In this document: in pieces, positions 13,420 to 25,979 of the stretch
Layout: each line of letters begins with the position of its first letter
Numbering within the stretch: position 1 is the stretch's first letter
Made by a program: the position numbers and the translations under genes
Source: an uncultured Fusibacter sp.
GTDB taxonomy: Bacteria; Bacillota; Clostridia; Peptostreptococcales; Acidaminobacteraceae
Length of the DNA: 64,000 nt
Assembly: GCA_965140735.1 (NCBI GenBank)
Contig: OZ223306.1
Location: 1,997,621 to 2,061,620 of the forward strand
Direction: 5' to 3'
The notes under the pieces: model-generated
Database searches by the model: none
What the model was told of the DNA's origin: nothing
The model's input: the letters and a program-made list of their open reading frames with translations, nothing else

Positions 13420-13938
13420 ATGGAATATTTAGAAATAAAAAAAGATTTATCAGTACTTGGCATAAAACTGGGTGCAACCTTTGAAAAATGTATCAAAGTA
13501 TTTGGTAATAACTACAAAGAGATTACTCGGCCTGTTTACAAAAAATCATATGTTGCTCGGTATAAAACCCTAGATTATTTTAACGGTGGTCTTGTTCTAT
13601 TCTTCGAAGATAACAATAAATTGATTTCGATAGCAATAGATAAATCTCTCTCTAGCCATTACAAGGTCCACTATGATAATGTACCAATATTTGATGTCCC
13701 AAGAAATATACTTATTAATATTTTCATAAAAAAATACGGATATGAATATCTAGATACTTCTGATCTCAATTTCATTACATCTAAAGATGGATTGCTTATA
13801 TATTCAGAAACTGTTTTCAACTATTCAGAATTAGAAGATCCATACTTTAAATTAATGGCGTCAGAAGATCAACTAAGTTATTTTGATTCTATTTTCATAT
13901 CATCTTTTTCTATAGGAAATCTCAATGCTAATGACTAG
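13420..13938 (+). CDS. Hypothetical protein (172 aa)
   Basis: ORF with a weak RBS and no recognisable motif. Lies immediately left of the island-end repeat. Confidence 0.4.
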   Translation: MEYLEIKKDLSVLGIKLGATFEKCIKVFGNNYKEITRPVYKKSYVARYKTLDYFNGGLVLFFEDNNKLISIAIDKSLSSHYKVHYDNVPIFDVPRNILINIFIKKYGYEYLDTSDLNFITSKDGLLIYSETVFNYSELEDPYFKLMASEDQLSYFDSIFISSFSIGNLNAND

Positions 13939-13942
13939 ATTT

Positions 13943-14047
13943 AATTGCTCTCTAGTATCCTGTAATTATGGTTTATTGAGAAATTTATGGTTCATTGATT
14001 CAAAAAAATAAACGAACCCTCACATTTGTATAGGTTCGTTCTTTATT
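13943..14047. repeat. Left copy of imperfect ~105-bp direct repeat (attL-like): degenerate integrase 3'-end remnant plus tmRNA-terminator-like hairpin
   Basis: aattgctctctagtatcctgtaattatgg...ttcaaaaaaataaacgaaccctcacatttgtataggttcgttctttatt matches 25865..25979 (the int C-terminus codons plus the ssrA terminator) with several mismatches and one 8-bp indel. The int-like part here is interrupted by a stop. Confidence 0.6.
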
Positions 14048-14058
14048 AAGACAACAAG

Positions 14059-14145
14059 ATTTGAGCCGAAAGCTGTGATGAGGGGTGTTCAACCTCAAAC
14101 AGCGTCAGTGAAAATCGGTTTGAGGCATCAAAAGATGGCTCAAAT
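14059..14145. other. Nested stem-loop structure just inside the island's left end (possible small structured RNA or recombination-site structure)
   Basis: ATTTGAGCC (14059..14067) pairs with GGCTCAAAT (14137..14145). Inner CCTCAAAC (14093..14100) pairs with GTTTGAGG (14118..14125), with a 17-nt loop. Confidence 0.3.
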
Positions 14146-14314
14146 GTTGTTGGTAGGCTGGGCTAGTGGGCATTAAATAAGAACTTTCAAACTGCTCCAA
14201 GAAATTTAGGTCAATCTCAATCTGTTCAGACTTTGTTATAAATACTATTTCTAATTTTACATCGTACAAATAAAGTTTATTCACAAAGATGCCATTTCCA
14301 TGCCACCACCTTCT

Positions 14315-14575
14315 CTATGTGTTAATCTTAAAACATCCTTGATACTCATTAATCTCAGAATGTTCAATCATAGGCGGCTTCACTACAATAAATTCGAAAT
14401 CCACTTGTTTGGCATTATTATAAACCTTCCCATTTTTAGGAAGAGGTACTTTTTTGCCATCCATATAGATCCAAGCACTAACGCTGTACGCTCTATTGAG
14501 TACATTAAATGTACTATTTTTCCTTATCTCAGTTATAGAAAAAATATATATTCCAATTTTATTTCTTATTGACAT
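14315..14575 (-). CDS. Hypothetical protein (86 aa; weak call, overlaps an equally long plus-strand ORF)
   Basis: ORF only. No RBS and no motif. Confidence 0.2.
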   Translation of the reverse strand: MSIRNKIGIYIFSITEIRKNSTFNVLNRAYSVSAWIYMDGKKVPLPKNGKVYNNAKQVDFEFIVVKPPMIEHSEINEYQGCFKINT

Positions 14576-14701
14576 ATTTTTCTATTATGTTACACTACTC
14601 CGTGTAAGTCATACTGTATAGGAGATGTCCATTTGAAGACATAATCTCTCTGCTACTCGATACATATTTCTTGATAAAAATAATATATTAGGAGGATAAA
14701 A

Positions 14702-15139
14702 ATGCAAAAAAAACATATTTATGTTCTAATAAGCCTTATTTCTTTAGGAAGTTTGCTTATAGATGCTTTTGTTTATGCTACAACAGTAAACATATTATAT
14801 TTCATATTGATCTATATTTTATCGTTACTTTCTGCTTCGCTTATTGGAAAATACATATCTAGATTTTTATTAGTCGTTATTGTTTTCCAAATATTATTAA
14901 CCTCTTTAATATTTCCAAAATATAGCTACGAAGATGCCGAAAGGGAAATTTTGGAAATTTATAATCAAGAACAGGTTTTCAATCTAAAGCCTACAACGGC
15001 ACTCACTTCTATTCATTTTTATGAAATTGTTAATTTTGGTTATGTTTTTGAAATTGAATATCAAGGAAAGCGTGTCGAAGTTATTGTCAATCCAAACAAC
15101 TTAGCTGAATACGGAATTCTTGGTGGAAATCATGATTAA
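14702..15139 (+). CDS. Hypothetical membrane protein (145 aa; 3 TM plus soluble C-terminal domain)
   Basis: Strong AGGAGG RBS upstream of the ATG. Hydrophobic N-terminal half. Confidence 0.5.
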   Translation: MQKKHIYVLISLISLGSLLIDAFVYATTVNILYFILIYILSLLSASLIGKYISRFLLVVIVFQILLTSLIFPKYSYEDAEREILEIYNQEQVFNLKPTTALTSIHFYEIVNFGYVFEIEYQGKRVEVIVNPNNLAEYGILGGNHD

Positions 15140-15667
15140 GAAAAATAGTAAGCATCTTATTCATATTTGTTTTAGCAACAACATCGAGATTAGGTGCTTT
15201 TAGTACAGGTCTTGTAAGTGGCCTTATAGGTAGCTATATTGACTCAAAACTTCATTATGCGACTACACTAGACCTGTTGAAAATCACTCTGATCTAGGAT
15301 AATGTAATGGATTTCTAGGATCATGTTATGACCTCGTTGAGGCAGGCATTTGGAATTATTTATTTAACTAAACGTTCAAACAATTTAATATTCACGAAAG
15401 GAAGTTTCAATTATAGATTTATTTAATCATAAATTGATTTCAAAATTTTCTCACACTGTCTAACCAAATAATGCGCTTCCACCGCTACCATGAACTGAAC
15501 CTTATCCTCATTATAGACCCCAAACAAACTCCAACCTGCTTATGTCATTCCCTCAACACGACCCGGCTTAGTTCCATAAACTGACTCAATACGAATTGAG
15601 TCTTTTTTAGTGTAAATGTAAAAATAGTTTAACGCTCTTTGTGCTACAGGTATCTGTTCTCACCTCT

Positions 15668-16185
15668 CTACTCTTCCGCATAATACCGCCTATCCTTATA
15701 CTTCATCACCAACTCTTTCTGAACTCTCACAAGATCAAGATCAAACACCTCAGCAGCCTTTAAAAAATTGAAACTCAGTGCCATATGTAAATCAGCAATC
15801 TGTAATTGATGATAAAAAAAGTCATCCTGCTCACTCACCGACAAATACTGACACTCCCTCTTATTTCTCGTGATCTTCTTGATCGCCTTAGCACTTTCAA
15901 TCGCCTCTTCCATTTCCTCGATCAAACAATCCAGAACAGTGGTATAATTCTCATCCACATTATCAAGCAATGGCATATTAAAAAGACCAAGCTTTCTTTC
16001 AGTGGTATATTCAACCTTTAACCTCGGTTCTTTCACAATTCCTATGACTTTTTCGACTAGATCAGACGGAAACTCCTGAGTACCACGCTCACACTTACTG
16101 TAATTGCTCTGACTCATGCCCAACTGACATCCAGTGAAAGACCTTCTTTATCCCTTGCAAACTTCAAACGTTCGTAAAAGTGCAT
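15668..16185 (-). pseudogene. Frameshifted XRE-family HTH regulator with ~120-aa C-terminal domain (cI-like repressor candidate)
   Basis: ATG at ~16185 with an AAGGAGG RBS encodes MHFYERLKFARDKEGLSLDVSWA* (helix 1-2 of an XRE HTH). After a +2 frame change the 151-aa ORF continues QLGMSQSNYSKCERGTQEFPSDLVEKV (helix 3 onward) plus a C-terminal domain. Together they form one complete HTH_XRE domain. Confidence 0.5.
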
Positions 16186-16296
16186 CCCTCTATCGACCTC
16201 CTTTATTATGAAATTGAATTTTGTCACAATAGAATCAAACTCCTCGATATGATATTAATTAACATGTAAAATCGTGACTTTTATGAATAAAATTCT

Positions 16297-16497
16297 TCAT
16301 TTTGTGACTTTGTTATTAAAAAAAATAGTCCATTCAAATCCAAACAGTTCCGCAATTTTTTTTGCTAACCCTACTGATGGATTTCTTTTACTATTCTCAA
16401 TCTGGGTATAGTGCGTTCTTGAAATACCTACACTATCAGCAACTTTTTGTTGACTCATCCCTTTTTGATTTCTACTGTCAATAAGATACTGTCTCAT
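16297..16497 (-). CDS. Small XRE-family HTH transcriptional regulator (66 aa, cro/cI-like)
   Basis: MSQQKVADSVGISRTHYTQIENSKRNPSVGLAKKIAELFG is a canonical HTH_3 domain. Upstream is a TTGACG-17-TATATT promoter overlapped by GTCACA operator motifs. Confidence 0.75.
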   Translation of the reverse strand: MRQYLIDSRNQKGMSQQKVADSVGISRTHYTQIENSKRNPSVGLAKKIAELFGFEWTIFFNNKVTK

Positions 16498-16661
16498 CGC
16501 ATTCTCCTTTAAGACTCATTTTGTGACTATATTAATAATATAGCCACAATTAGAGTATTCGTCAACACTTTTTTTAACATTCAACATTTTTTTATTACAT
16601 TTTGTTAAATCCAATATTGTCTGTCACAAAAAGAAACACTATAATATAGTAGAGGTGTCAT
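16498..16661. promoter_or_regulatory. Divergent promoter/operator region of the island's regulatory switch
   Basis: Minus-sense TTGACG-17nt-TATATT drives the 66-aa XRE gene. Plus-sense TTGTCT (16617..16622)-17nt-TATAAT (16640..16645) drives the first ImmR-like gene. Repeated TTTGTGACT / GTCACAA motifs at 16521..16530 and 16623..16629 overlap the promoter elements, and similar motifs occur at 16221..16230, 16273..16279 and 16301..16310. Confidence 0.5.
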
Positions 16662-16979
16662 ATGAAAATTAATCGTTTAAGAGATTTAAGAACTGAAAAA
16701 GGACTTACGCAATATGAAATTGCTGATTATTTAAATCTTAAAAGAACAACTTATGCAAATTATGAAAGTGGTACTAGAGAACCCGACTATGAAACTCTTT
16801 TAAAGATATCAGATTTCTTTGATGTTTCAATTGACTACCTATTGGAAAAAACCGATATTCGAAAATATACAGAAGATATTCTCGCTTTCAACTCTACTGA
16901 AGGTTTGACAGAAGATGATCTCAAACTTGTTCATCAGATGATTCAGAATATGCGAGATAAGAATTTGAGTAAGAAGTAG
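16662..16979 (+). CDS. ImmR/SinR-like XRE-family repressor, paralog 1 (HTH plus conserved C-terminal tail)
   Basis: LRTEKGLTQYEIADYLNLKRTTYANYESGTREPDYETLLKISDFFDVSIDYLLEKTD is an HTH_XRE domain with the ..VS.DYLL..TD motif. The C-terminal YTEDILAFNSTEGLTEDDLKLVHQMIQNMRDKN is shared by all four paralogs. Confidence 0.8.
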   Translation: MKINRLRDLRTEKGLTQYEIADYLNLKRTTYANYESGTREPDYETLLKISDFFDVSIDYLLEKTDIRKYTEDILAFNSTEGLTEDDLKLVHQMIQNMRDKNLSKK

Positions 16980-17055
16980 GATTTAATAATTGAGATTAGG
17001 AGCTGTAAGGCTCTTTTTCTAGGATTATACATGGTGAATATTGTTATACTTGAGA
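16872..17055. repeat. Left copy of ~185-bp direct repeat (3' end of ImmR-like gene plus ~75 bp downstream)
   Basis: About 90% identical to 19222..19403 (gaagatattct..gcgagataagaattt..gataattgagattaggagct.taaggctctttttcta..atacatggtga.tattgttata). Confidence 0.7.
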
Positions 17056-17144
17056 AATGTTATCACTCTATTAAGTGTCTCTTTCATATCTAATTGACAA
17101 AATTTTAATTACCTCATTTTTAATAAATTGAGAAAGGAGAAATT

Positions 17145-18197
17145 ATGAATTTATACTACTACTCAAAGCATATGCTAACCATTTTCAATAATAACAATGA
17201 ACTAATAAATTATTTTAAAGAGCTTAGCCTATGTCAAGAAACTCTTATTATCAATCCCAAGGATATAGCAAATTTGCCAGCGGGGGGTACGGAACTGAGC
17301 GAAAGTGTGAATGAAATTAGAAATGAAATTAATGACGATTTGAAAAAAACATTATCAATTATTCGAAAGAATAAACCATTGAATGTGATGTCTTTAATAA
17401 GTAATTTCATCGTTGAATTAATGGCTTCTGATGACACTTTTGGTTCAGACAATAATTTTATCGAAAAATTAAGTGAATTTATTAAACTTCATACTGATGC
17501 CTATTCTGATGAAACACTGCCCCACGTATATAAACTTACTAAATTGAGCTCAAAATTATATCAATCCATTTCTAGTTATATTGAACATTTTGAGTTTATC
17601 GTTGAAAGTAATGAAAAAAACTTTGATTCTATCCCATCTACGCACAATATAATATCAATTAACTCAGATCAAAAAACATATTATATAAGTGAATTTGTCA
17701 ATATTTTTACAAGTATAGAAAAACTATATGAATACATCTGTTTCATTTACCAAATTGATGCTGAAAAACCTAATAATAAATTATTAATTAATGATATTCA
17801 CACTGGTTCGTGGGCTACTGACTTACTTGGAATCAAACAAGTTGTTATTACTATTGAAAACTTATTAAAGGGTATAGGTGTATTTTTAAGAGATCTTATA
17901 ACTGGTCAAATCAGTAAAGAAATGTATCTTAATAAATGTGAACAAATGTCTGCATATATGGATTTAGTTAAAAAAGCAAAAGAAATTGGAATTGATAATC
18001 CGGAAGTCGGTTTATTAAAATGTTTAAAACCATTTGGCGAAATTGCTGAAAAAGGAATGACTACTCTTGAAGTTAATGGAGAAGATGTATTAAATCTCTC
18101 TGCTTACGAAAAATTGATTATAAAAATTATAAAATTGGATCTCGAAAAATTGATTGAAAGTGCCACTCAAATTGAACAATTAGAAGAAAAAGAATAA
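17145..18197 (+). CDS. Hypothetical protein (350 aa), no recognisable domain, embedded inside the ImmR-like array
   Basis: Strong AAAGGAG RBS upstream of the ATG. Predicted soluble and helical-rich, with no motif I can assign. Confidence 0.55.
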   Translation: MNLYYYSKHMLTIFNNNNELINYFKELSLCQETLIINPKDIANLPAGGTELSESVNEIRNEINDDLKKTLSIIRKNKPLNVMSLISNFIVELMASDDTFGSDNNFIEKLSEFIKLHTDAYSDETLPHVYKLTKLSSKLYQSISSYIEHFEFIVESNEKNFDSIPSTHNIISINSDQKTYYISEFVNIFTSIEKLYEYICFIYQIDAEKPNNKLLINDIHTGSWATDLLGIKQVVITIENLLKGIGVFLRDLITGQISKEMYLNKCEQMSAYMDLVKKAKEIGIDNPEVGLLKCLKPFGEIAEKGMTTLEVNGEDVLNLSAYEKLIIKIIKLDLEKLIESATQIEQLEEKE

Positions 18198-18263
18198 ACT
18201 GAAACTGATTTTTTTGACATGTTGGTGAATTTTTTCCGAGCTAATATAAAAAATATTCATCTA

Positions 18264-18327
18264 ATGATATCAAACTTGTTCATCAGATGATCCAAAACAT
18301 GCGGAATAAGAATTTGGGTAAGAAATA
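18264..18327 (+). pseudogene. 3'-terminal remnant (last ~21 codons) of a further ImmR-like paralog
   Basis: gatatcaaacttgttcatcagatgatccaaaacatgcggaataagaatttgggtaagaaatag encodes ...DIKLVHQMIQNMRNKNLGKK* with no 5' part. It is followed by the shared 5' leader of the next paralog. Confidence 0.6.
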
Positions 18328-18347
18328 GAATTTACATTAGGTGAAAT

Positions 18348-18668
18348 ATGCTATTTAGTGAAAGATTCAAGGCTTTAAGACAAGAAAAAGAATTAACTCA
18401 AACAGAACTTGCAAATAAGCTAAATATTTCTCAAGGTTCTGTTGCAATGTATGAAAGTGGAAAAAGAATACCTGAAAATAATGTGCTTATATTATTGTCT
18501 AAGTTTTTTGATGTCTCAACTGATTATTTATTAGGACTTACTGATATAAGAAAATACTCAGAAGATATTCTTGCTTTTAATTCTACTGAAGGTTTAACTG
18601 AAGACGATCTCAGACTTGTTCATCAAATGATTCAAAATTTAAGAGATAAAAATTCAGGAAATAAGTAA
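18348..18668 (+). CDS. ImmR/SinR-like XRE-family repressor, paralog 2
   Basis: MLFSERFKALRQEKELTQTELANKLNISQGSVAMYESGKRIPENNVLILLSKFFDVSTDYLLGLTD plus the conserved tail. The first ~75 nt are identical to paralog 4. Confidence 0.8.
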   Translation: MLFSERFKALRQEKELTQTELANKLNISQGSVAMYESGKRIPENNVLILLSKFFDVSTDYLLGLTDIRKYSEDILAFNSTEGLTEDDLRLVHQMIQNLRDKNSGNK

Positions 18669-18669
18669 G

Positions 18670-18987
18670 ATGATAAAATTAAGACTACGAGAATTAAGAC
18701 AATCAAAACAACTAACACAGGAAGAACTCTCTAAAATTTTAAAAATTCCTAGATCTACATATGCAAATTATGAAAATGGAAGCAGAGAGCCTGATAATAA
18801 TACAATTTCTTTAATATCTGATTATTTTAATGTATCAGTAGACTACCTTTTTGGTAAAACTGATATAAAAAAATACACCGAGGATATTCTTGCTTTTAAT
18901 TCTACAGAGGGTTTAACTGAAGATGATCTTAAACTTGTTCATCAAATGATTCAGAATATGCGGGATAAAAATTTAGGTAAGAAATAA
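18670..18987 (+). CDS. ImmR/SinR-like XRE-family repressor, paralog 3
   Basis: MIKLRLRELRQSKQLTQEELSKILKIPRSTYANYENGSREPDNNTISLISDYFNVSVDYLFGKTD plus the conserved tail. The start codon sits 2 nt after the stop of paralog 2. Confidence 0.8.
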   Translation: MIKLRLRELRQSKQLTQEELSKILKIPRSTYANYENGSREPDNNTISLISDYFNVSVDYLFGKTDIKKYTEDILAFNSTEGLTEDDLKLVHQMIQNMRDKNLGKK

Positions 18988-19006
18988 AATTTACATTAGG
19001 TGAAAT

Positions 19007-19327
19007 ATGCTATTTAGTGAAAGATTCAAGGCGTTAAGAGAAGAAAAAGGATTAACACAAGAAGAACTCTCTAAAATTCTTGGTGTTGGACGATCCACAA
19101 TTGCTGGATATGAAACAAAATCAAAGCAACCTAACTATGAACTTTTAAATAAAATTTCAATTTTTTTTGATGTGTCTACTGACTATTTACTAGGTCTTAC
19201 TGATGTAAAAAAATATTCAGAAGATATTCTTGCCTTCAACTCTACTGAAGGTTTGACAGAAGATGATATCAAACTGGTTCATCAGATGATTCAAAATATG
19301 CGAGATAAGAATTTGGGTAAGAAATAG
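19007..19327 (+). CDS. ImmR/SinR-like XRE-family repressor, paralog 4
   Basis: MLFSERFKALREEKGLTQEELSKILGVGRSTIAGYETKSKQPNYELLNKISIFFDVSTDYLLGLTD plus the conserved tail. Confidence 0.8.
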   Translation: MLFSERFKALREEKGLTQEELSKILGVGRSTIAGYETKSKQPNYELLNKISIFFDVSTDYLLGLTDVKKYSEDILAFNSTEGLTEDDIKLVHQMIQNMRDKNLGKK

Positions 19328-19403
19328 AATTTGATAATTGAGATTAGGAGCTATAAGGCTCTTTTTCTAAGATCATACATGGTGATTATTGTTATAAGTG
19401 CTA
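19222..19403. repeat. Right copy of ~185-bp direct repeat flanking the ImmR-like array
   Basis: See 16872..17055. The repeats bracket a 2.35 kb segment holding the 350-aa ORF and paralogs 2-4. Confidence 0.7.
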
Positions 19404-19514
19404 ATCGTATCACAATTGTACATTATTATATGATTACTACTTAGTTTAGGCATTTCAAAATAATTTACATTAAAAACAAAAAAATATTCAGATTTATTCA
19501 AAGAGGGGGATTCA

Positions 19515-20804
19515 ATGGTATTAAAATTATCTGCATTTACAGTGATTATCATAACGATATTATCTATTGTTGCTTTAGACATAGTTGCACACTTAATCGC
19601 TCACTTAATTGGAAACACCAATCCAAAATGGTATAAGCTTTTAGGTATAGTTTCATTTCTTTATATTGTATGCTACACTTCACTAACGGCAACCGGATTC
19701 CTTGTAATAAACAAAACTCTAGATGGTGAAAATGAATCTATTGTAAGTCAAAATTCAAATGAAATTTACTCAGTTACTGCTAAATCTGATCCTGCTAGTG
19801 CTTCAATATTCTCAGGAACTGGATATAATTTTAAAACCGGAGACTCTTATTCTGTTGATGTTGAGTACGATAAAACGAAGTATCGTTTTGATGGATGGGA
19901 AGGCGATAACGAAGGTACTATTTCATCTATGGATGTCTATCTTATAGCACATTTCACACCGATTATGTATTCTGTCAATGCAAAAGCATCTCCCCCTGAA
20001 GCTGCAACTTTCTATGGAATAGGGGATAATTTTGACTCTGGCGATAAATTTAATATAACTTTTACCTACGATAAGAATAAGTATAAATTTGAAAGTTGGT
20101 CAAAAGATAATTCTGGTATTGTAGAAAATGCCGATATAAATTTATTAGCAACTTTTACTCCTATTTACTACACCGTCACAGCCGTTTCCAATCCGCCTAA
20201 TGTAACATCTTTCAATGGAACTGGTACCGATTTTTTTTATGGAGATCCCTATAACGTTACACTAACTGATAATCTAGATAACTATGAATTTGTTAAATGG
20301 TCTAATGATAACTCTGGTGTGATCTCTGGTAACAATATTAATTTAATTGCTGAGTTTCAAGAAAAGGAAGTTTTCGACAGCATTAGTTCTCTTAATTTCT
20401 TATCAAAAGCGGAAGTTCATGCTTCAATAAAATCATTTACATCTAATTATGGAACTACATATTATGACTCATTTGTAGTACAAGACGGCATATTAGAAGG
20501 TGGTCACTCAAAATATGAGATCGTTTTAGATGGAAAATATAAAAAATTTAAGGCTGTTATGGCAGCAACACAAAGAATGTCTGAGGCACGTGTATTTAAA
20601 AACTTTGGAGAAGTTTTAATTAAAGGCGATGGAGAAACACTCTACGATAATGTTATTAATAGTAATGATAAACCTGTAGATATTGACATTGATATTAGTA
20701 ATATTGATATTTTAGAAGTCCAAGTTTATGTAGCCGCTGGTGCCGGCTATAATTCAGCCGAAACCTTGGAAATTGGTGTTGGTGATATGAAATTTTGTTA
20801 TTAA
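19515..20804 (+). CDS. Membrane-anchored surface protein with three Listeria-Bacteroides (Flg_new-type) repeats and a C-terminal NPCBM/NEW2-like putative carbohydrate-binding domain
   Basis: N-terminal TM segment. Three ~65-aa repeats (YSVTAKSDP..GTGYNF.TGDSYSVDVEYDKTKYRFDGW / YSVNAKASP..KYKFESW / YTVTAVSNP..NYEFVKW) match the Flg_new pattern. C-terminal ..DGKYKKFKAVMAATQRMSEARVFKNFGEV...LEVQVYVAAGAGYNSAETLEIGVGDMKF resembles NPCBM. Confidence 0.55.
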   Translation: MVLKLSAFTVIIITILSIVALDIVAHLIAHLIGNTNPKWYKLLGIVSFLYIVCYTSLTATGFLVINKTLDGENESIVSQNSNEIYSVTAKSDPASASIFSGTGYNFKTGDSYSVDVEYDKTKYRFDGWEGDNEGTISSMDVYLIAHFTPIMYSVNAKASPPEAATFYGIGDNFDSGDKFNITFTYDKNKYKFESWSKDNSGIVENADINLLATFTPIYYTVTAVSNPPNVTSFNGTGTDFFYGDPYNVTLTDNLDNYEFVKWSNDNSGVISGNNINLIAEFQEKEVFDSISSLNFLSKAEVHASIKSFTSNYGTTYYDSFVVQDGILEGGHSKYEIVLDGKYKKFKAVMAATQRMSEARVFKNFGEVLIKGDGETLYDNVINSNDKPVDIDIDISNIDILEVQVYVAAGAGYNSAETLEIGVGDMKFCY

Positions 20805-20889
20805 AATATCCCACTATTCTTTTTTATATTTATATGCCTATTGATTTACTATTACAGACTATACTATATCTAGAGGAAGGACTAAATAT

Positions 20890-22473
20890 ATGCTTAAGCC
20901 CAAAAGTAACAAGTACACATTTGAAAGTATAGACATAAGCAAACTAATTCTCAATCCACAAAATGCTCGATTTTATTCTGGACAGGAAAATGAATCGGAA
21001 TTTGATACTGTAAATGAAATGCTTAATTTAAAGGATTCTCATATTGTTCCATTAGCACTAGACATTGATAAAAACGACTTAAACTCACATGAACTTTTAA
21101 TTGTAAAGCCTATAGAAAATAACCAATACTTTGTTCTAGAAGGTAATCGAAGAACCACTGCAATTAAGCTAATGACTCAATATAAAAACGAATTACAGAA
21201 CTTAGATTTGAGGGCTACAGATATTAAAAAACTTCTAGTTACAAAATATAACAATACCATGCTCCCATGTGTTGTATCATCTGATGATGATTATATTAAT
21301 CAATTATTAGAGCGAACACATACTGCAAAAAAAGGGATTAGCCGAGCTATGTGGAATCCACTGGCTGCGGATAATTTTAGAGATAGTCTTGGCCAACCCT
21401 CAAAGCGAAAAACGCTTCTTGATATGGTGCTTTCATCTGAGTTTTGTACAGAAAAAGTTATCGAAATAGCTTCTTCAGATAGATGGATAGCACAATTTGC
21501 TCGTTTTACGAAAAAAAATGATGTCATGAGAAATTATTTCGGAGTTGAGTTCATTGACAATGAAAATGTTTTATTAATCTGGAATGAAAAAATAACAGTT
21601 GAACGCTTATGCCAATTAATATATGATTGTAAAGCCTTAAAGGCTTCTGAGATGGCTCAAACAGATGAACTCATTGATAATTATTTAAATAATAATATCC
21701 TTGATTTTAATGTTCTCAATCCAAGTGAATTTAATAATCCAATAATTGCATATAATCACGAGGTAAATCAGTTTTACCCTACAGATAAAGAAAACAAACA
21801 TTACCGTGAGATCGAATTGCCTACTGTAGTTGCATCCCCTAGCAAAACTGCTCCAACTATTACTGAAAATACATCCATGACTTCCTCATCTCACAATATT
21901 GTTACTCATCCTACTACAGATTTGATATCTGAAATCTATCCTGATATTACTATTGAAAGTGAATTACTTGACGACATTGATCCTGTACTGGATCCAGGAT
22001 TAAAAAGAGGTCCTAAACCTAACATTACTTTGATTTCTAGAAAATATCATATTCCAATTTCAGATCAGAGAGTCCAAGATCTATTTGCAGAGTTGAAAAA
22101 ATTACCTTTAAATCACTATATTAATGTTGGAGCAATAGGTTTTCGATCACTCATTGAATTTACAGTAAATATTTATATTGAAAAAGTTATGAACAAAAAA
22201 TTAGGTTCTTATCATTCCTTAGAAGAAAAAGTTATAGCTGTGTATAAACGAATTTCTGGAAATATAGGTGCTGGTGAAGCTAAAAAGTTTATGCCTGCTT
22301 TTTCAATAGATATTGAAAGTGATAAGATCTCTGAATGTGGTGTTATTTCAATTCTAAACACCTTAATTCACAATCATAATTTACATCCTACTATTTCTGA
22401 TTTACAGCAAAGTTTTAAAAATTATTACATGTTTTTAAAATTTTCTTGGAGTGATATCAACAAATTTTATTGA
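20890..22473 (+). CDS. ParB/Sulfiredoxin-fold N-terminal domain protein (527 aa) with GxRRxxA NTP-binding/nuclease-like motif and long uncharacterised C-terminal region
   Basis: ILNPQNARF...LLIVKPIENNQYFVLEGNRRTTAIKLM matches the ParB N-terminal domain (ParBc), including the GERRxRA-like box (GNRRTTA). The remaining ~400 aa have no motif I recognise. Confidence 0.6.
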   Translation: MLKPKSNKYTFESIDISKLILNPQNARFYSGQENESEFDTVNEMLNLKDSHIVPLALDIDKNDLNSHELLIVKPIENNQYFVLEGNRRTTAIKLMTQYKNELQNLDLRATDIKKLLVTKYNNTMLPCVVSSDDDYINQLLERTHTAKKGISRAMWNPLAADNFRDSLGQPSKRKTLLDMVLSSEFCTEKVIEIASSDRWIAQFARFTKKNDVMRNYFGVEFIDNENVLLIWNEKITVERLCQLIYDCKALKASEMAQTDELIDNYLNNNILDFNVLNPSEFNNPIIAYNHEVNQFYPTDKENKHYREIELPTVVASPSKTAPTITENTSMTSSSHNIVTHPTTDLISEIYPDITIESELLDDIDPVLDPGLKRGPKPNITLISRKYHIPISDQRVQDLFAELKKLPLNHYINVGAIGFRSLIEFTVNIYIEKVMNKKLGSYHSLEEKVIAVYKRISGNIGAGEAKKFMPAFSIDIESDKISECGVISILNTLIHNHNLHPTISDLQQSFKNYYMFLKFSWSDINKFY

Positions 22474-22526
22474 TTATCATCCCTCTCCATGGTATAGTAT
22501 ATTGAGCAAAAAAATGAGGAGGGCAT

Positions 22527-24158
22527 ATGAAAATTTTACTAATTGAACCAAGTTATAAAAATAAATATCCCCCTTTAGGATTAATGAAAATCGCTACTTA
22601 CCATAAATCTCGTGGAGATTATGTTTACTTCCATAAAGGGCTATATGATACAGACGAAAGTTGGGATCGAGTTTATATCACTTCGTTATTTACTTTTGAT
22701 TTTGATTTAGTCGTCAAATCAGTTGAGTACTATAAAAAAATTTTTACTGATAAAAATAAGATTTATCTTGGTGGAATTGCTGCTACGCTTTTAGAAGAAA
22801 AATTCAGAACCACTACTAAGTTAGACAATATGTTGACTGGTAGATTAACAAATTCTTCTCAAATTGGTTTTGATGACAATGTGAATATTGATTCATTGAT
22901 CCCAGATTATGATATTTTGATGGATACTGATTATAAGTACGGCACTGGCGATAGCATAATAAGTTATACTTCCCGTGGATGTATTAACACATGTTCATTT
23001 TGTGCAGTCCCGCTACTTGAAGGTCAGCTTACAACGGTAAACAATATTAGCTCTCAGATCAATACTATTAGAGATAAATATGGCGACAAAAGAAATCTAT
23101 TGCTGCTTGATAATAATATTCTTGGTTTTGATGAAGCTTATCTCACTAAATTCGTAACTGAGCTTAATCAGCTTGGATATATAAATACGCCATCTTATTA
23201 TCGAGTAACACGATTTGAAGAATTAATGGGCTATTATTATCGACAACTTGCTAACGGTTGTAGAACATTAAATGCATTGAAATTGATTGAAGAGTTCTTA
23301 CAAGAACTGTTAATTAAGACTACTGTCTCAGCTTCAAATAAAGAGATCATACAAGATATTCTTGATGAAGCTTACGCCGCATCCGACTTCTTTGATGTAA
23401 TGGAAAGTCGATATAATGAGATTGTTGATATTAGTACCTTCCATTATTTAAGAAATCCTCTTCAAAGATATGTGGATTTCAATCAAGGATTAGATGCGCG
23501 AGAGTTGACTCCTGAGAAAATGAAAATTCTTGCCAGACTACCGATCCGCCCATACCGTTTTGCTTTCGATAATATTAAATCAAAAGATGAATATTCTAAA
23601 GCAATCCGATTGGCTTCTGATCACGGTGTTAGACACTTTTCAAATTATTTGCTCTATAATTTTAAAGATGATCCTGTCGAGCTATACGAACGGATTATGT
23701 TAAATTTAGAATTGGTTGAAGAATTAGATCTAGTAATTTATTCATTTCCAATGAAATATGCACCTATTGATAAAACCAATCGAAAATATATAGGTGAAAA
23801 ATGGAATGCACATTTCTTGAGAATGTTTCAAGCTATTATTAATGTGACAAAAGGTGTAGTCGCAGGTGATCGTTCTTTCTTAGAGACTGCATTTGGTCAC
23901 ACTAAAGAAGAATATATTGAATTATTGCATATGCCACACGATTTTATAGTTTATAGAAATTTTTACCAAAATATCGGATTAACAGCTGACTGGAAAAAAG
24001 AATTTTCAAAATTGTCAAAATCACAAAAAGAAAAACTCATTGAAATAATTTCAACACTAAAATATGAAACTGATATCAATGAATTAAAACCTATTATTAA
24101 ATTCTATACAATGAGATACAAGCAAATTAAAGAGATCCCCAATTCAACAGCAAGTTGA
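22527..24158 (+). CDS. Cobalamin-binding-domain (class B) radical SAM enzyme, 543 aa
   Basis: N-terminal MKILLIEPSYKNKYPPLGLMKIATYHKSRGDYVYF matches the B12-binding domain signature of class B rSAM proteins. YTSRGCINTCSFCAVP gives a CxxxCxxC radical-SAM cluster motif. There is a long C-terminal extension without Cys clusters. GAGGAGG RBS upstream. Confidence 0.65.
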   Translation: MKILLIEPSYKNKYPPLGLMKIATYHKSRGDYVYFHKGLYDTDESWDRVYITSLFTFDFDLVVKSVEYYKKIFTDKNKIYLGGIAATLLEEKFRTTTKLDNMLTGRLTNSSQIGFDDNVNIDSLIPDYDILMDTDYKYGTGDSIISYTSRGCINTCSFCAVPLLEGQLTTVNNISSQINTIRDKYGDKRNLLLLDNNILGFDEAYLTKFVTELNQLGYINTPSYYRVTRFEELMGYYYRQLANGCRTLNALKLIEEFLQELLIKTTVSASNKEIIQDILDEAYAASDFFDVMESRYNEIVDISTFHYLRNPLQRYVDFNQGLDARELTPEKMKILARLPIRPYRFAFDNIKSKDEYSKAIRLASDHGVRHFSNYLLYNFKDDPVELYERIMLNLELVEELDLVIYSFPMKYAPIDKTNRKYIGEKWNAHFLRMFQAIINVTKGVVAGDRSFLETAFGHTKEEYIELLHMPHDFIVYRNFYQNIGLTADWKKEFSKLSKSQKEKLIEIISTLKYETDINELKPIIKFYTMRYKQIKEIPNSTAS

Positions 24159-24193
24159 AACAGTTTACATTCTAAAAATAAAATGTTATCCTA

Positions 24194-24228
24194 GAAACAG
24201 AACGTGTGTTCTGTTTCTTTTTTTTATT
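24194..24228 (+). terminator. Rho-independent terminator after the radical SAM gene
   Basis: AGAAACAGAAC-GTGT-GTTCTGTTTCT followed by T8. Confidence 0.7.
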
Positions 24229-24246
24229 TTAGGAGGCTACTCACTA

Positions 24247-24744
24247 ATGACCAAACTACTCGACATAATCACCACCCTTGGCATCCACATCGAATACAGC
24301 CCCGATCTTCCCTCTAAAATCAGAGGGTTTTATTATAAGGACTCAGGCGATGAGATCATCGTCATGAATGAAGACATCAAAGACGAAACCGAGTTCCGTC
24401 ACGTCTTAGCGCATGAACTAGGGCACTATTTTACCACTATAACGACTAAATCGCTCTCGCCTTATTCGTCATATCTGGATATACTTAATACCCACAGAAA
24501 CGAATCTCGTGCGATTAGATGGGCATGTGATTACCTTATCCCTACATACGATCTCATAGACTATCTAAAATCACAAAAGGGTATCTCAGTGGCAGATATC
24601 GCACAGGCATTTAAAGTCACAGAGGAAATGATCACCATGAAATTAACCATCATGAGTCTTGAAAGGCTCTACTGGAAAGTCGATGATAAAAGACAGTTGG
24701 TCCTCACTTCCCTACCCTCTATTTATATGTATACGCCATTATAA
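24247..24744 (+). CDS. ImmA/IrrE-family zinc metallopeptidase (anti-repressor protease candidate)
   Basis: VLAHELGHYF holds the HEXXH motif in the position typical of ImmA/IrrE (COG2856-like). The gene sits immediately upstream of the integrase, as immA does in ICEBs1. AGGAGG RBS upstream. Confidence 0.7.
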   Translation: MTKLLDIITTLGIHIEYSPDLPSKIRGFYYKDSGDEIIVMNEDIKDETEFRHVLAHELGHYFTTITTKSLSPYSSYLDILNTHRNESRAIRWACDYLIPTYDLIDYLKSQKGISVADIAQAFKVTEEMITMKLTIMSLERLYWKVDDKRQLVLTSLPSIYMYTPL

Positions 24745-24767
24745 TTTTTACGAAAGGAGTTGATCAT

Positions 24768-25886
24768 ATGGCGAAAAAGACAAACTTTGAAACCAATGGC
24801 AAAGAATATTACCGTGTTAGGGCTCAGATCGGTATTAATGATCAGGGTAAGCAGATCATGAAGGTCTTTTATGGCACTTCTAAAAAAGAGGCTGAGTTAA
24901 AGCGTGATGAGTACTTTGCAAACCTCAGACGTGGTATGGCACTGGATTATGACAAGTTGAAGTTTTCGGACTTCTTTTCCAATTGGCTCGATATCGTTCA
25001 TAGACCCACACTGGCACAAAGCTCATATAACCGCTATGATACGATTCATCGGATATGGATATCACAGAGTGGCTTCTACACCATGAAGCTCACTGCTATT
25101 AAGAGTATGAACATACAGCAGTATATGAACACCATCGACAAGGTACCCACTGCTGAAAAGATGTATATGCTCTTGTCCTCATTTTTTAAGTATTGCATCA
25201 GAGAAAGGGTACTCACCTTTAATCCTATGGACAACGTGCGCAAACCGAAGCAAAAACAAGTCGAAAGTAAAAAGCATCTTGATCGTGATGAAATCGCACT
25301 GCTCACTGAAGCTTACAGTGCAGATCAAAGTCTATTCGTCTATTTATTCGCATTGTTCACAGGTCTTAGACAAGGCGAGATTTTGGCGCTTACACATGCA
25401 GATATTGAAAATGATCTGATCAAGGTGAATAAAACACTGAACAGAGTTAAAAAGGATGGCAGAAACCAAGTGATCGTCACTGCACCTAAAACGCCATCAA
25501 GCATTCGGGTGATTCCCTTATTTGATGAATTAAAAGAGCCACTGAGGCGACATGTCATTCTTGAAAAAGAAAAGCATCTCCGACTTGGGATTCATTTTTC
25601 TAAAAGCAATCATCTTTTCACTGCAAATAACTGTTCTCCCATCAGAGGCGATCGCTTAACTTCAAGATGGCGAAAACTTCAAAATCAATTAGGAATTGAG
25701 GAAGATGTAAACTTTCACGCTTTACGTCATACTTTTTGCACGCTACTTGCCTCAAAAGGTGTCCCTCTAAAAACAGCTGCCACACTTATGGGCCATTCAG
25801 GTATAGAAACCACTGCTCGGATTTATACGCATGTGGATGTAGATTCTAAGATCGAAGCGATCAAATTGCTCTCTGGTATTATGTAA
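24768..25886 (+). CDS. int: Tyrosine-type site-specific integrase
   Basis: N-terminal SAM-like and core-binding region. C-terminal catalytic HALRHTF...LMGHSGIETTARIYTHV (R, H-x-x-R, Y). Adjacent to the ssrA 3' flank, with an AAAGGAG RBS upstream. Confidence 0.85.
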   Translation: MAKKTNFETNGKEYYRVRAQIGINDQGKQIMKVFYGTSKKEAELKRDEYFANLRRGMALDYDKLKFSDFFSNWLDIVHRPTLAQSSYNRYDTIHRIWISQSGFYTMKLTAIKSMNIQQYMNTIDKVPTAEKMYMLLSSFFKYCIRERVLTFNPMDNVRKPKQKQVESKKHLDRDEIALLTEAYSADQSLFVYLFALFTGLRQGEILALTHADIENDLIKVNKTLNRVKKDGRNQVIVTAPKTPSSIRVIPLFDELKEPLRRHVILEKEKHLRLGIHFSKSNHLFTANNCSPIRGDRLTSRWRKLQNQLGIEEDVNFHALRHTFCTLLASKGVPLKTAATLMGHSGIETTARIYTHVDVDSKIEAIKLLSGIM

Positions 25887-25979
25887 TTATGGCTTATCGA
25901 AAACTTTATGGTTAAATTATGGTTAATTGATTCAAAAAAACAAACGAACCCTTGCATTTGCAAAGGTTCGTTCTTTATT
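25865..25979. repeat. Right copy of direct repeat (attR-like) = integrase 3' end plus ssrA rho-independent terminator
   Basis: Minus-sense hairpin GAACGAACCTTTGCAAATGCAAGGGTTCGTT followed by a T-run, directly downstream of tmRNA. The sequence is repeated imperfectly at 13943..14047. Confidence 0.6.

What the first reader, a model, noticed from the sequence alone, without database searches (positions are those of the whole stretch)
13940..25979. ~12 kb integrative island at the ssrA 3' flank, with regulatory but no transfer or structural genes
Integrase and ImmA lie directly next to the tmRNA terminator, with smpB-ssrA on the other side. An imperfect direct repeat of the tmRNA terminator region lies 11.9 kb to the left. 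Cargo is almost entirely of unknown function: the multi-ImmR array, a 350-aa ORF, a surface protein and the ParB-like/rSAM pair. No replication, conjugation or capsid genes are present. This fits a satellite-like or mobilisable island, possibly with a defence-type cargo.
Basis: partly seen in the sequence, partly recalled or inferred. Interest (0 to 1): 0.55.

Follow-up and report, generated by a model that had tools for sequence, protein, structure and literature searches.

The report
Defence island beside the tmRNA gene
This is a real ~12-kb integrase-bearing island next to the tmRNA gene of a Fusibacter bacterium, built from a phage-type repressor/protease/integrase switch that carries swappable anti-phage defence genes; it is a fairly ordinary kind of mobile element, though it holds one uncharacterised defence gene pair.

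Summary
The tmRNA gene (25979-26343, minus strand) is followed by its terminator, a converging intact tyrosine integrase and an ImmA protease. A 110/121-nt imperfect direct repeat lies 11.9 kb to the left (E 2.6e-26).

Three Fusibacter relatives carry the same backbone at the same site: integrase, ImmA, ImmR, a Cro-like HTH and a 149-aa regulator. Their cargo differs and is all defence-related: Lamassu plus a type IV restriction enzyme; PDC-M22 plus a methyltransferase; here a PD-lambda-5_A-like protein plus a radical SAM enzyme. Backbone identity does not track flank identity, so the element has its own history.

Three corrections:
- The repeat contains no tmRNA sequence. It holds a relic of an integrase 3' end, so it looks like the fossil right end of an earlier related element.
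- Variable DNA begins at 13172, not 13940.
- The cargo is not simply unknown; the "ParB-like" gene is defence-related.

No replication, packaging or transfer genes were detected, so the satellite reading has no positive evidence. No empty site was found, and the integrase is decayed in all three relatives, so current mobility is unproven. Verdict: a new member of a known kind, of moderate interest.

The parts
13172..13937 (+). Variable DNA outside the repeat, including a 172-aa ORF (13420-13938) of unknown function. Possibly the remainder of an older insertion.
   Evidence: Identity of 97% to the sister strain ends at 13171. GC is 0.277. No family hits and no copy in any fetched locus.
13938..14047 (+). 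Left copy of the direct repeat. It holds a relic of an integrase 3' end with an in-frame stop, two TTATGGTT motifs, a degraded terminator hairpin and TTCTTTATT.
   Evidence: (E 2.6e-26).
14052..14153 (.). A ~100-nt stable imperfect palindrome just inside the left end. Function unknown.
   Evidence: Minimum free energy -42.2 and -32.7 kcal/mol, z -3.6 and -3.9, with 0 of 200 shuffles folding as well. No Rfam family. Unique among the sequences held.
14702..15139 (+). 145-aa predicted membrane protein of unknown function. It sits in the left-end variable slot.
   Evidence: ORF, with no family hits. Relatives carry other genes here: an MNT/HepT toxin-antitoxin in F. ferrireducens and a 187-aa PG_binding protein in the sister strain.
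15668..16185 (-). Conserved backbone regulator. A 23-aa leader ORF (16114-16185) overlaps by ATGA the start of a 149/151-aa protein (15668-16123).
   Evidence: Matches phrog_1124, a transcriptional regulator family (E 9e-6). It is 93-94% identical in amino acids to the sister strain and F. ferrireducens. The leader/overlap arrangement is conserved in all three genomes.
16297..16497 (-). 66-aa Cro-like XRE HTH protein, the first gene of the leftward operon.
   Evidence: Pfam HTH_3, E 1e-15. A divergent HTH gene sits at the same position in the relatives.
16498..16661 (.). Divergent control region between the Cro-like gene and immR1.
   Evidence: Back-to-back promoter-like sites: plus strand 16617-16645 (TTGTCT-17-TATAAT) and minus strand 16565-16537 (TTGACG-17-TATATT). 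These are consensus matches only.
16662..16979 (+). immR1, a 105-aa XRE repressor with the conserved C-terminal tail.
   Evidence: Pfam HTH_3, E 2e-18. Alignment A2. Tail-bearing homologues were found only in Fusibacter-related sequences.
17145..18197 (+). 350-aa protein of unknown function from a rare family. It lies between immR1 and immR2.
   Evidence: No Pfam, NCBIfam or PADLOC hits. Only 33 relatives among 1.84 billion representatives, nearly all about 340-360 aa and unnamed.
18264..18334 (+). Relic of an immR 3' end, upstream of immR2.
   Evidence: 89% identical to the 3' end of the F. ferrireducens immR. Part of repeat family D2.
18348..19327 (+). immR2 (18348-18668), immR3 (18670-18987) and immR4 (19007-19327), three more paralogous repressors in tandem.
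   Evidence: Full-length match of immR2 to PADLOC capH (E 9e-14). The HTH halves are 48-59% identical and the tails 82-95%. The HTH half of immR2 is 91% identical to the sister strain's single ImmR.
19515..20804 (+). 429-aa protein with hydrophobic N-terminal segments, InlB B-repeat-like repeats and a C-terminal NPCBM-like domain. Cargo of unknown role.
   Evidence: Pfam NPCBM (E 9e-7) and Flg_new_2 (E 7e-6). No PADLOC hit.
20890..22473 (+). 527-aa PD-lambda-5_A-like protein. It has an N-terminal GNRR motif of ParB/Srx type, a low-complexity linker and a conserved C-terminal domain.
   Evidence: PADLOC PD-Lambda-5_A, E 3e-54, full length. phrog_9592 (E 2e-27). Partner proteins next to rSAM homologues in five other elements also hit PD-Lambda-5_A. 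Alignment A3. The ParB fold itself was not confirmed.
22527..24158 (+). 543-aa radical SAM enzyme with an N-terminal Rossmann (B12-binding-like) domain.
   Evidence: The CX3CX2C motif (C152, C156, C159) is invariant in 30 homologues. Weak Pfam Radical_SAM and NCBIfam B12-rSAM hits. phrog_9298 (E 2e-44). The AlphaFold model has pLDDT 91. The nearest solved folds are MgmA, MiaB, AprD4, TsrM and RimO.
24193..24218 (+). Terminator-like hairpin ending the cargo operon.
   Evidence: 11-bp stem followed by a T-run.
24247..24744 (+). ImmA-type zinc metallopeptidase (HELGH), 165 aa, with no GAF domain.
   Evidence: Pfam Peptidase_M78 (E 3e-16). PADLOC capP (E 2e-10). It is 92-94% identical in amino acids to the relatives' ImmA.
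24768..25886 (+). Intact tyrosine integrase of 372 aa.
   Evidence: phrog_1 integrase (E 2e-70). XerC/D-type hits. Candidate catalytic residues R201, K241, H317, R320, H343 and Y353 are present. Near-identical pseudogene fragments occur in Fusibacter sp. 3D3.
25859..25979 (+). Right copy of the direct repeat. It holds the integrase 3' end, three TTATGG(C/T)T motifs, the ssrA terminator (25942-25973) and TTCTTTATT abutting the tmRNA end.
25979..26343 (-). tmRNA (ssrA), the target locus. Tag peptide ANENFALAA.
   Evidence: ARAGORN. Rfam RF00023, 169.7 bits, full length.
26358..26819 (-). smpB, the conserved chromosomal neighbour.
   Evidence: It is 95-99% identical to Fusibacter SmpB proteins.

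Best explanation
**What it is**
The segment from about 13.2-13.9 kb to 25,979 is one allele of a family of ~12-kb islands, seen so far only in Fusibacter, that sit immediately 3' of ssrA.

**Backbone**
The backbone is the lysogeny switch of a temperate phage or of ICEBs1.
- Rightward operon: immR, then cargo, then immA, then a tyrosine integrase. It ends at the element's right arm, which adjoins the ssrA terminator.
- Leftward operon: a Cro-like HTH protein and a 149-aa regulator.
- There are two cargo slots. The main one lies between immR and immA; a small one lies at the left end.

**Cargo**
The slots hold anti-phage genes. Here that is a PD-lambda-5_A-like protein paired with a B12-domain-type radical SAM enzyme, plus two unknowns (350 aa and 429 aa).

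**Inferred mechanism**
- The integrase recombines the element at or next to the tmRNA 3' end.
- ImmR represses the leftward promoter and autoregulates the rightward operon. The defence genes are therefore expressed with the repressor in the resting state.
- On DNA damage or infection, ImmA cleaves ImmR in its conserved C-terminal tail, and the switch flips.
- The element has no replication, packaging or transfer genes. Spread must therefore rely on helpers (transduction, or hitch-hiking on phage or ICE) or on homologous replacement between the conserved ends.

**Other features**
- The four ImmR paralogues have divergent HTH halves and a shared tail. The extra immR relic suggests cassettes were added repeatedly by recombination at immR.
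- The 110-nt left repeat is the fossil right end of an earlier element with the same integrase type, which implies tandem accretion.
- Whether this copy can still excise is open; my estimate is about 40%.
For: **Shown**
- tmRNA, terminator, integrase and ImmA are adjacent.
- The integrase is intact, with its candidate catalytic residues.
- The repeat is not chance (E 2.6e-26).
- GC is 0.319 in the variable region against 0.357 in the flanks.
- Three relatives hold the same backbone at the same site with different cargo.
  - F. ferrireducens: LmuA (3e-62), LmuB (2e-129), type IV restriction enzyme (2e-65) and an MNT/HepT pair.
  - Sister strain: PDC-M22A/B (8e-115, 2e-200) and a type II methyltransferase (8e-54).
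  - Fusibacter sp. 3D3: a decayed ImmA-integrase pair pushed 6 kb from ssrA by other cargo (Fic, ParE/Phd).
  - Sources.
- The F. ferrireducens element is flanked by a 23-nt repeat spanning the tmRNA 3' end, matched in 0 of 100 shuffles.
- Backbone identity does not track the chromosome.
  - Against the sister strain: flanks 95.5-97%, backbone DNA 86-94%, integrase only 48% in amino acids.
  - Against F. ferrireducens: flanks 80-84%, backbone DNA 86-91%.
  - Sources.
- The same order (repressor, PD-lambda-5_A-like, rSAM, ImmA and/or a recombinase) occurs in an E. callanderi prophage and in other mobile or viral contigs.
- The ImmR paralogues match capH end to end, and ImmA matches capP and Peptidase_M78.
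- The repeat motif next to the integrase stop codon varies with integrase type.

**Inferred**
- The regulation logic comes from ICEBs1 ImmR/ImmA and from CapH/CapP (10.1101/2022.04.27.489752; PMC8960796).
Against: - No empty ssrA site was found. Every relative with enough sequence carries an element or its remains. A fifth contig ends 410 bp past the tmRNA.
- The integrase is frameshifted or fragmented in all three relatives.
- The window has no second copy of the 23-nt tmRNA-end core seen in F. ferrireducens: none within 3 mismatches of a 20-nt version, and none within 8 mismatches of the 23-mer at the left end.
- No excisionase was recognised.
- The family is tiny. Tail-bearing ImmR homologues came only from Fusibacter-related sequences, and JGI metagenomes gave none.
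- Defence activity of the cargo rests on HMM matches and gene context only.
Confidence: 0.65

Rival explanations
1. This is a fixed prophage remnant. A temperate phage integrated at ssrA in an ancestor and lost its lytic genes by internal deletion. What remains is an immobile lysogeny module. The site now behaves as a chromosomal defence hotspot whose cargo is exchanged by homologous recombination between the conserved immR and immA/int sequences, not by integrase-mediated movement.
For: - The module order is identical to that of a complete E. callanderi prophage, which has RecT and other early genes beyond the switch.
- The integrase is decayed in all three relatives.
- No empty site was seen.
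- The window lacks the tmRNA-core repeat.
- The integrase is mosaic: its conserved 5' 190 nt and 3' 175 nt flank a divergent middle. Together with the immR relics, this shows recombination inside the backbone.
Against: - Two complete elements, in the window and in F. ferrireducens, have nearly the same compact size (11.6-11.9 kb), and the sister strain's variable region at the site is of similar size (13.2 kb, including extra Fic-bearing DNA). All three share the same backbone. Independent random deletions would not be expected to give this.
- The window integrase is intact with all candidate catalytic residues.
- Integrase alleles differ by about 50% between strains whose flanks are 97% identical. 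This implies whole-end replacement.
- The fossil right end at 13938-14047 implies at least two integration events.
Confidence: 0.25
2. This is a phage satellite (PICI-like or a minimalist satellite). It is induced by a helper phage, excises, and is packaged in helper capsids. The unknown ORFs (350 aa, 145 aa, 172 aa) and the 100-nt palindrome would supply the hijacking, origin or pac functions.
For: - Its size is about 12 kb, and it has an integrase plus a repressor/Cro-type switch at a tRNA-like site.
- Defence cargo is typical of satellites (established knowledge, not tested here).
- Several ORFs and a structured non-coding element remain unexplained.
Against: - No primase/replicase, terS, capsid, head-size or packaging-interference family was detected with Pfam, NCBIfam or PHROGs.
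- The unknown ORFs are not conserved among the related elements, so they are cargo rather than a satellite core.
- The only conserved core genes are regulators, ImmA and the integrase.
- A close-relative search with the integrase found nothing in IMG/VR.
Confidence: 0.08
3. There is no mobile element. The repeat is a coincidental terminator duplication, and the region is ordinary strain-variable chromosome.
For: Terminator hairpins are common and can recur. The left copy is degraded.
Against: - The repeat extends 80 nt beyond the hairpin and includes an integrase 3' relic (E 2.6e-26).
- An intact integrase abuts the tmRNA terminator.
- The backbone is shared, with swapped cargo, in relatives.
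- GC deviates from the flanks.
Confidence: 0.02

Closest known systems
ICEBs1 (Bacillus subtilis) int-immA-immR module and phage phi105 ImmA/repressor
   Same: - The gene set is the same: a tyrosine integrase, an ImmA metalloprotease (short, HExxH, no GAF domain) and an XRE-type ImmR in one operon.
- This operon is divergent from a second operon, and the element sits next to a tRNA-like gene.
- The presumed logic is repressor proteolysis on DNA damage (PMC8960796).
   Different: - There are no conjugation genes (unlike ICEBs1) and no phage lytic or structural genes (unlike phi105).
- Cargo of 4.8-7 kb lies between immR and immA.
- There are four ImmR paralogues instead of one.
- No Xis was recognised.
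CapH/CapP regulator pairs of CBASS and other defence operons
   Same: - The ~105-aa repressors match the capH model end to end (E 9e-14).
- ImmA matches capP (E 2e-10).
- The regulators flank defence genes.
   Different: - CapP has extra HTH and GAF domains; this ImmA is 165 aa.
- Here the pair also belongs to an integrase module.
- The two regulator genes bracket the cargo rather than preceding it.
PD-lambda-5 two-gene defence system (Vassallo et al. 2022, PMC9519451)
   Same: - The 527-aa protein matches PD-Lambda-5_A over its full length (E 3e-54).
- It is a two-gene operon carried by prophage-type elements.
   Different: - The partner is a radical SAM enzyme, not the PD-lambda-5_B methyltransferase; it has no PADLOC hit.
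- The A-like/rSAM pairing recurs in at least five other elements.
Prophage and satellite defence hotspots and PICI-type satellites (general knowledge)
   Same: - Integrase-bearing elements at conserved sites.
- A conserved backbone flanks slots in which defence systems are swapped between strains.
   Different: - No satellite core (primase/replicase, packaging) and no phage core genes were detected.
- The family has been seen only in Fusibacter so far.
Genomic islands and cryptic prophages integrated at ssrA in other bacteria (for example E. coli CP4-57, recalled from memory and not tested here)
   Same: - The target locus is the same.
- The integrase lies next to the tmRNA 3' end.
- A repeat including the tmRNA 3' end flanks the F. 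ferrireducens relative.
   Different: In the window the flanking repeat lies wholly downstream of the tmRNA and contains an integrase 3' relic.

Membership tests
Tyrosine-integrase genomic island at a tRNA/tmRNA gene | Tyrosine recombinase with the catalytic R-K-H-x-x-R-H/W-Y residues | tested here: met
   phrog_1 integrase (E 2e-70). XerC/D-type hits. R201, K241, H317, R320, H343 and Y353 were located by motif in the sequence.
Tyrosine-integrase genomic island at a tRNA/tmRNA gene | Lies directly at the 3' end of the target RNA gene | tested here: met
   The tmRNA ends at 25979 and the integrase stop codon is at 25886.
Tyrosine-integrase genomic island at a tRNA/tmRNA gene | Flanking direct repeats that include the 3' part of the target gene | tested here: not met
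   The window repeat ends at the tmRNA 3' end, and no second copy of the tmRNA-end core exists. The related F. ferrireducens element does meet this feature: a 23-nt repeat with 3 mismatches, matched in 0 of 100 shuffles.
Tyrosine-integrase genomic island at a tRNA/tmRNA gene | Presence/absence polymorphism (an empty site in relatives) | tested here: inconclusive
   Four relatives were examined. Three carry a related element with different cargo or its remains. One contig is too short to tell. Content polymorphism was seen, but no empty site.
Tyrosine-integrase genomic island at a tRNA/tmRNA gene | Composition differs from the flanks | tested here: met
   GC is 0.319 against 0.357. The cargo is 0.28-0.31 and immA-int is 0.405.
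ImmR/ImmA (CapH/CapP-like) protease-repressor switch | XRE HTH repressor with a C-terminal oligomerisation/cleavage domain | tested here: met
   HTH_3 (E 2e-18). capH model matched at positions 5-102 of 103 (E 9e-14). The tail is conserved.
ImmR/ImmA (CapH/CapP-like) protease-repressor switch | M78-family HExxH metallopeptidase encoded with the repressor | tested here: met
   Peptidase_M78 (E 3e-16). HELGH motif. capP (E 2e-10).
ImmR/ImmA (CapH/CapP-like) protease-repressor switch | Signal-dependent cleavage of the repressor by the protease | not testable with these tools
   This needs biochemistry or in vivo assays.
PD-lambda-5 defence system | PD-Lambda-5_A protein | tested here: met
   PADLOC PDLC03998, E 3e-54, residues 11-520 against model positions 4-464 of 466.
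PD-lambda-5 defence system | PD-Lambda-5_B methyltransferase partner | tested here: not met
   The adjacent gene is a radical SAM enzyme with no PADLOC hit. No methyltransferase is present in the island.
PD-lambda-5 defence system | Protects against phage | not testable with these tools
   This needs plaque assays.
Phage satellite (PICI, cfPICI, P4-like, PLE) | Own replication module (primase/replicase and origin) | tested here: not met
   No such family was found with Pfam, NCBIfam or PHROGs. The unknown ORFs cannot be excluded.
Phage satellite (PICI, cfPICI, P4-like, PLE) | Packaging or capsid-hijack genes (terS, capsid morphogenesis, interference) | tested here: not met
   No hits.
Phage satellite (PICI, cfPICI, P4-like, PLE) | Helper-dependent induction and transfer | not testable with these tools
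   Experimental.
ICE / integrative mobilisable element | Relaxase, coupling protein, type IV secretion system or a recognisable mobilisation gene | tested here: not met
   No hits.
Intact prophage | Terminase, portal, capsid, tail and lysis genes | tested here: not met
   PHROGs gave only regulators, the integrase and the two cargo families. The left flank is conserved chromosome.

The most novel reading that the evidence does not exclude
The island's main cargo may be an undescribed restriction-modification-like immune system. In it, a B12-domain-type radical SAM enzyme would take the place of the SAM-dependent methyltransferase of PD-lambda-5, perhaps marking self nucleic acid by radical chemistry. 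The PD-lambda-5_A-like ParB-family protein would act as sensor or effector. The module would be expressed from a switch in which one ImmA protease controls four operator-specific ImmR repressors through a shared cleavable tail.

The pairing of a PD-lambda-5_A-like protein with this rSAM recurs in six elements. The same rSAM family is also paired with HATPase_c_3 and HerA-like proteins in viral contigs, and at least 526 IMG/VR contigs encode relatives.
Probability: 0.2. Interest if true: 0.7.

Novelty: new member of a known kind. Interest (0 to 1): 0.4.

Why it matters
- **For the genome.** It explains a 12-kb low-GC block and marks the ssrA flank as the defence-exchange hotspot of this Fusibacter lineage.
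- **More generally.** It is a clean example of defence systems riding inside the immR-immA-int operon of a stripped-down phage or ICE switch. The element has only regulators, a protease and an integrase as its core.
- **Two leads worth an experiment.**
  - The PD-lambda-5_A-like plus radical SAM pair is widespread in prophages but absent as a system from PADLOC v2.0.0, the defence catalogue searched here.
  - The array of four ImmR repressors has divergent DNA-binding halves and a common tail. This suggests multi-specific immunity controlled by a single protease.

Tried and rejected
1. Exact-protein look-ups of the window's SmpB, the 172-aa ORF and the rSAM returned nothing. The source genome itself could not be retrieved.
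Relatives were reached instead through protein clusters and SmpB homologues.
3. Two metagenome scans, one with the repeat pattern and one with the ImmR alignment, found nothing.
4. A viral-contig scan with the integrase found nothing.
5. I suspected a decayed tmRNA 3' fragment just right of the left repeat (TTGAGCCGA...GAGGGG), and homology between the left arms of the window and F. ferrireducens elements. Local alignment scores were no better than shuffles (136 and 52 of 500 reached them). No core-like copy within 8 mismatches exists. Rejected.
6. The hairpin differences between the repeat copies looked compensatory at first. By inspection the left copy simply has a degraded stem.
7. The ParB fold of the 527-aa protein was not confirmed.
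   - Pfam, NCBIfam and PDB sequence or profile searches gave nothing.
   - The single-sequence AlphaFold model was unusable (pLDDT 32).
   - The ParB label rests on the GNRR motif and the PD-Lambda-5_A match.
9. Literature searches found no description of a ParB-like plus rSAM defence pair. The rSAM system Ophion (10.1101/2025.09.30.679545) has different partners.

Full report
**1. What is in the sequence**

ARAGORN and Rfam agree on a full-length tmRNA at 25979-26343 on the minus strand, with tag ANENFALAA. smpB lies just upstream of it at 26358-26819.

Downstream of the tmRNA, leftwards in window coordinates, come these features:
- the ssrA terminator hairpin at 25973-25942;
- the 3' end of a converging 372-aa tyrosine integrase at 24768-25886 (phrog_1 E 2e-70; XerC/D-type hits);
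- a 165-aa Peptidase_M78/ImmA at 24247-24744, with the HELGH motif (E 3e-16).

The integrase carries candidate catalytic residues R201, K241, H317, R320, H343 and Y353.

Further left, all on the plus strand:
- a terminator-like hairpin at 24193-24218;
- a 543-aa radical SAM protein;
- a 527-aa protein;
- a 429-aa membrane/repeat protein;
- three tandem 105/106-aa XRE repressors;
- a 71-nt relic of a repressor 3' end;
- a 350-aa ORF;
- a fourth repressor.

Divergent from the first repressor are a 66-aa Cro-like HTH gene and a 149/151-aa regulator (phrog_1124). Promoter-like sites lie back to back in the 164-nt gap between the two operons.

**2. The repeat**

The repeat finder and a MAFFT alignment show 13938-14047 matching 25859-25979. 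blastn gives E 2.6e-26 in the 64-kb window, so the match is not chance.

Both ends of the repeat are sharp. The right end is the base next to the tmRNA CCA, so no tmRNA sequence is duplicated. The repeat comprises:
- the last 28 nt of the integrase ORF;
- a spacer with TTATGGTT motifs;
- the terminator hairpin;
- TTCTTTATT.

TTATGGTT occurs 8 times on the plus strand of the window. Four of these lie in the two repeat copies, against about 1.9 expected per strand.

In the left copy the integrase piece has an in-frame stop, and the hairpin stem is degraded. The left copy therefore looks like the fossil right end of another element with the same integrase type. It is not a duplicated target.

**3. 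Where the window comes from, and what relatives show**

The integrase clusters with two short pseudogene fragments from Fusibacter sp. 3D3. SmpB is 95-99% identical to Fusibacter proteins. Four related ssrA flanks were retrieved.

(a) A metagenomic contig from a sister strain (ERZ21878363).
- It is 95.5-97% identical to the window on both flanks.
- The left flank matches up to window 13171 and the right flank from 25971. Between them lie 13.2 kb of different DNA.
- That DNA has the same backbone. The regulator is 94% identical, the Cro-like HTH is present, and there is one ImmR whose DNA-binding half is 91% identical to immR2. ImmA is 92% identical, and the integrase is fragmented.
- Its cargo is PDC-M22A/B (8e-115, 2e-200), a type II methyltransferase (8e-54) and other genes.
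- A Fic gene and a different terminator lie next to the tmRNA.

(b) F. ferrireducens.
- Flanks are 80-84% identical to the window.
- The order is smpB, tmRNA, the identical terminator hairpin, a frameshifted integrase, ImmA (94%), LmuB (2e-129), MC3, LmuA (3e-62), a type IV restriction enzyme (2e-65), two unknowns, ImmR, then a divergent HTH, the regulator (split) and an MNT/HepT pair.
- This element is flanked by a 23-nt repeat, TCTTTATTGGTGGAGCCGAGGGG. That is 14 nt of the tmRNA 3' end plus 9 nt downstream.
- The left copy has 3 mismatches, is followed by a different terminator, and is matched in 0 of 100 shuffles.
- The element is about 11.6 kb.

(c) Fusibacter sp. 3D3.
- ImmA and an integrase pseudogene, about 89% identical in DNA to the window's, lie 9 kb from ssrA.
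- A fossil of the TTATGGT repeats and half the hairpin sits 6 kb from ssrA.
- Newer cargo lies between (ParE/Phd, Fic, cation efflux and others).

(d) A 9-kb contig ends 410 bp past the tmRNA, with yet another downstream sequence.

**4. What follows from the comparison**

- The site is an insertion and exchange hotspot.
- A compact backbone with the same architecture recurs. It is complete in the window, the sister strain and F. ferrireducens, and only a decayed ImmA-integrase remnant survives in 3D3. The two bounded elements, in the window and in F. ferrireducens, are each about 12 kb.
- The slot between immR and immA, and a smaller slot at the left end, hold different genes in each genome. 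Most are recognisable defence systems.
- Backbone identity does not follow chromosomal identity. DNA identity of the backbone is 86-94% whether the flanks are 97% or 80-84% identical. The integrases are only 48-51% identical in amino acids, apart from conserved 5' and 3' ends.
- The element therefore has a history of its own, with recombination inside the backbone.
- The motif repeated next to the integrase stop codon differs with integrase type. It is TTATGGTT in the window and 3D3, and TGCGGGAATTA in F. ferrireducens. This fits arm-type binding sites, which is an inference.

I found no empty site. The integrase is decayed in all three relatives. The window lacks the tmRNA-core repeat. Present-day mobility of this copy is therefore unproven.

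**5. The cargo**

The 527-aa protein.
- It matches PADLOC PD-Lambda-5_A over its full length (E 3e-54) and phrog_9592.
- Its N-terminus has the L-x-L-N-P-x-N-x-R-F and E-G-N-R-R-x-x-A motifs that suggest ParB/Srx.
- The fold could not be confirmed.
- PD-lambda-5 was described as a compact prophage-borne combination of restriction-modification and abortive infection with a methyltransferase (PMC9519451).

The 543-aa partner.
- Here the partner is a radical SAM enzyme. The CX3CX2C motif at C152, C156 and C159 is invariant in 30 homologues.
- The AlphaFold model has pLDDT 91.
- The nearest solved folds are the class B methylases MgmA and TsrM, AprD4, and the methylthiotransferases MiaB and RimO. 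TM-scores are only 0.4-0.5.
- It has more than 7,600 homologues, essentially all unnamed or "hypothetical". At least 526 IMG/VR contigs encode relatives.

Recurrence of the pair.
- In six elements examined, the gene next to the rSAM matches PD-Lambda-5_A, with E from about 4e-29 to 9e-72.
- In most of them the pair sits between a CI-like repressor and an ImmA and/or a recombinase.
- A second context pairs the rSAM with a HATPase_c_3 protein and a weakly HerA-like protein.
- The pair is thus a recurrent prophage moron of defence type, absent as a system from PADLOC v2.0.

The other cargo.
- The 350-aa ORF belongs to a rare family with 33 representatives.
- It and the 429-aa protein (NPCBM plus InlB-type repeats) remain unexplained.

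**6. The repressor array**

The four ImmR paralogues match capH end to end. Their HTH halves are 48-59% identical, while their last 40 residues are 82-95% identical. Tail-bearing homologues were found only in Fusibacter-related sequences.

CapH is cleaved by CapP inside its C-terminal oligomerisation domain. ImmR of ICEBs1 is cleaved by ImmA on DNA damage (PMC8960796).

By analogy, one ImmA here could cleave all four repressors through the shared tail, while the divergent HTH halves recognise different operators. The relic immR 3' end, and the conserved ~90 nt downstream of immR, point to cassette accretion by recombination at immR.

**7. Verdict**

This is a prophage/ICE-type lysogeny switch reduced to regulators, a protease and an integrase. 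It is parked at ssrA and used as a carrier of exchangeable defence genes.

It is not a member of PD-lambda-5, because the B component was tested and is not met. It is not a demonstrable satellite, ICE/IME or intact prophage, because their core genes were not found. I rate it a new member of a known kind, with moderate interest carried mainly by the rSAM pair and the repressor array.

Noticed in passing
window 14052-14153: A ~100-nt GC-richer imperfect palindrome lies just inside the island's left end. It folds far better than shuffles on both strands (z -3.6 and -3.9). It matches no Rfam family and has no other copy in the window or in the fetched loci.
   Followed up: partly
window 16114-16185 and 15668-16123 (minus strand): The conserved 149-aa regulator is preceded by a 23-aa ORF (MHFYERLKFARDKEGLSLDVSWA). 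This ORF has a strong AAGGAGG ribosome-binding site, and its stop overlaps the regulator's start (ATGA). It looks like the split N-terminus of an XRE HTH. The same arrangement is kept in the sister strain and in F. ferrireducens, so it may be translational coupling rather than a recent frameshift.
   Followed up: partly
L099 (Logan SRR32120541 contig), about 180 nt downstream of its tmRNA: A second, degenerate copy of the tmRNA 3' end (TTATTGGTGGAGATGGAGGGAGTCGAGC) with its own terminator lies beyond a ~180-nt insert that carries a different terminator. This looks like the footprint of a past integration at the same core. ARAGORN calls no tRNA there.
   Followed up: partly
L102, L104, L105, L107, L108 (IMG/VR contigs): Homologues of the island's radical SAM enzyme also occur as the third gene of an operon. 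The other two genes are a ~550-aa protein (weak HerA/mad8 hits) and a ~530-aa HATPase_c_3 protein. This is a second defence-like context for the same rSAM family.
   Followed up: partly
window 26965-27615 (minus strand): A 216-aa LUD-domain gene lies between smpB and the EamA transporter gene in the window, the sister strain and F. ferrireducens. It is missing at that position in Fusibacter sp. 3D3.
   Followed up: no
window 12509-12602 (inside the 904-aa surface protein gene, minus strand): There are five tandem 15-nt repeats. They encode a QDxP/TQD-type low-complexity stretch in the large secreted protein that flanks the island on the left.
   Followed up: no
window 24768-25886 compared with L088 and the sister-strain contig: The integrase gene is mosaic. 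Its first ~190 nt and last ~175 nt are 86-88% identical in DNA to the F. ferrireducens allele, while the proteins overall are only 51% identical. This suggests recombination breakpoints inside the integrase gene.
   Followed up: partly
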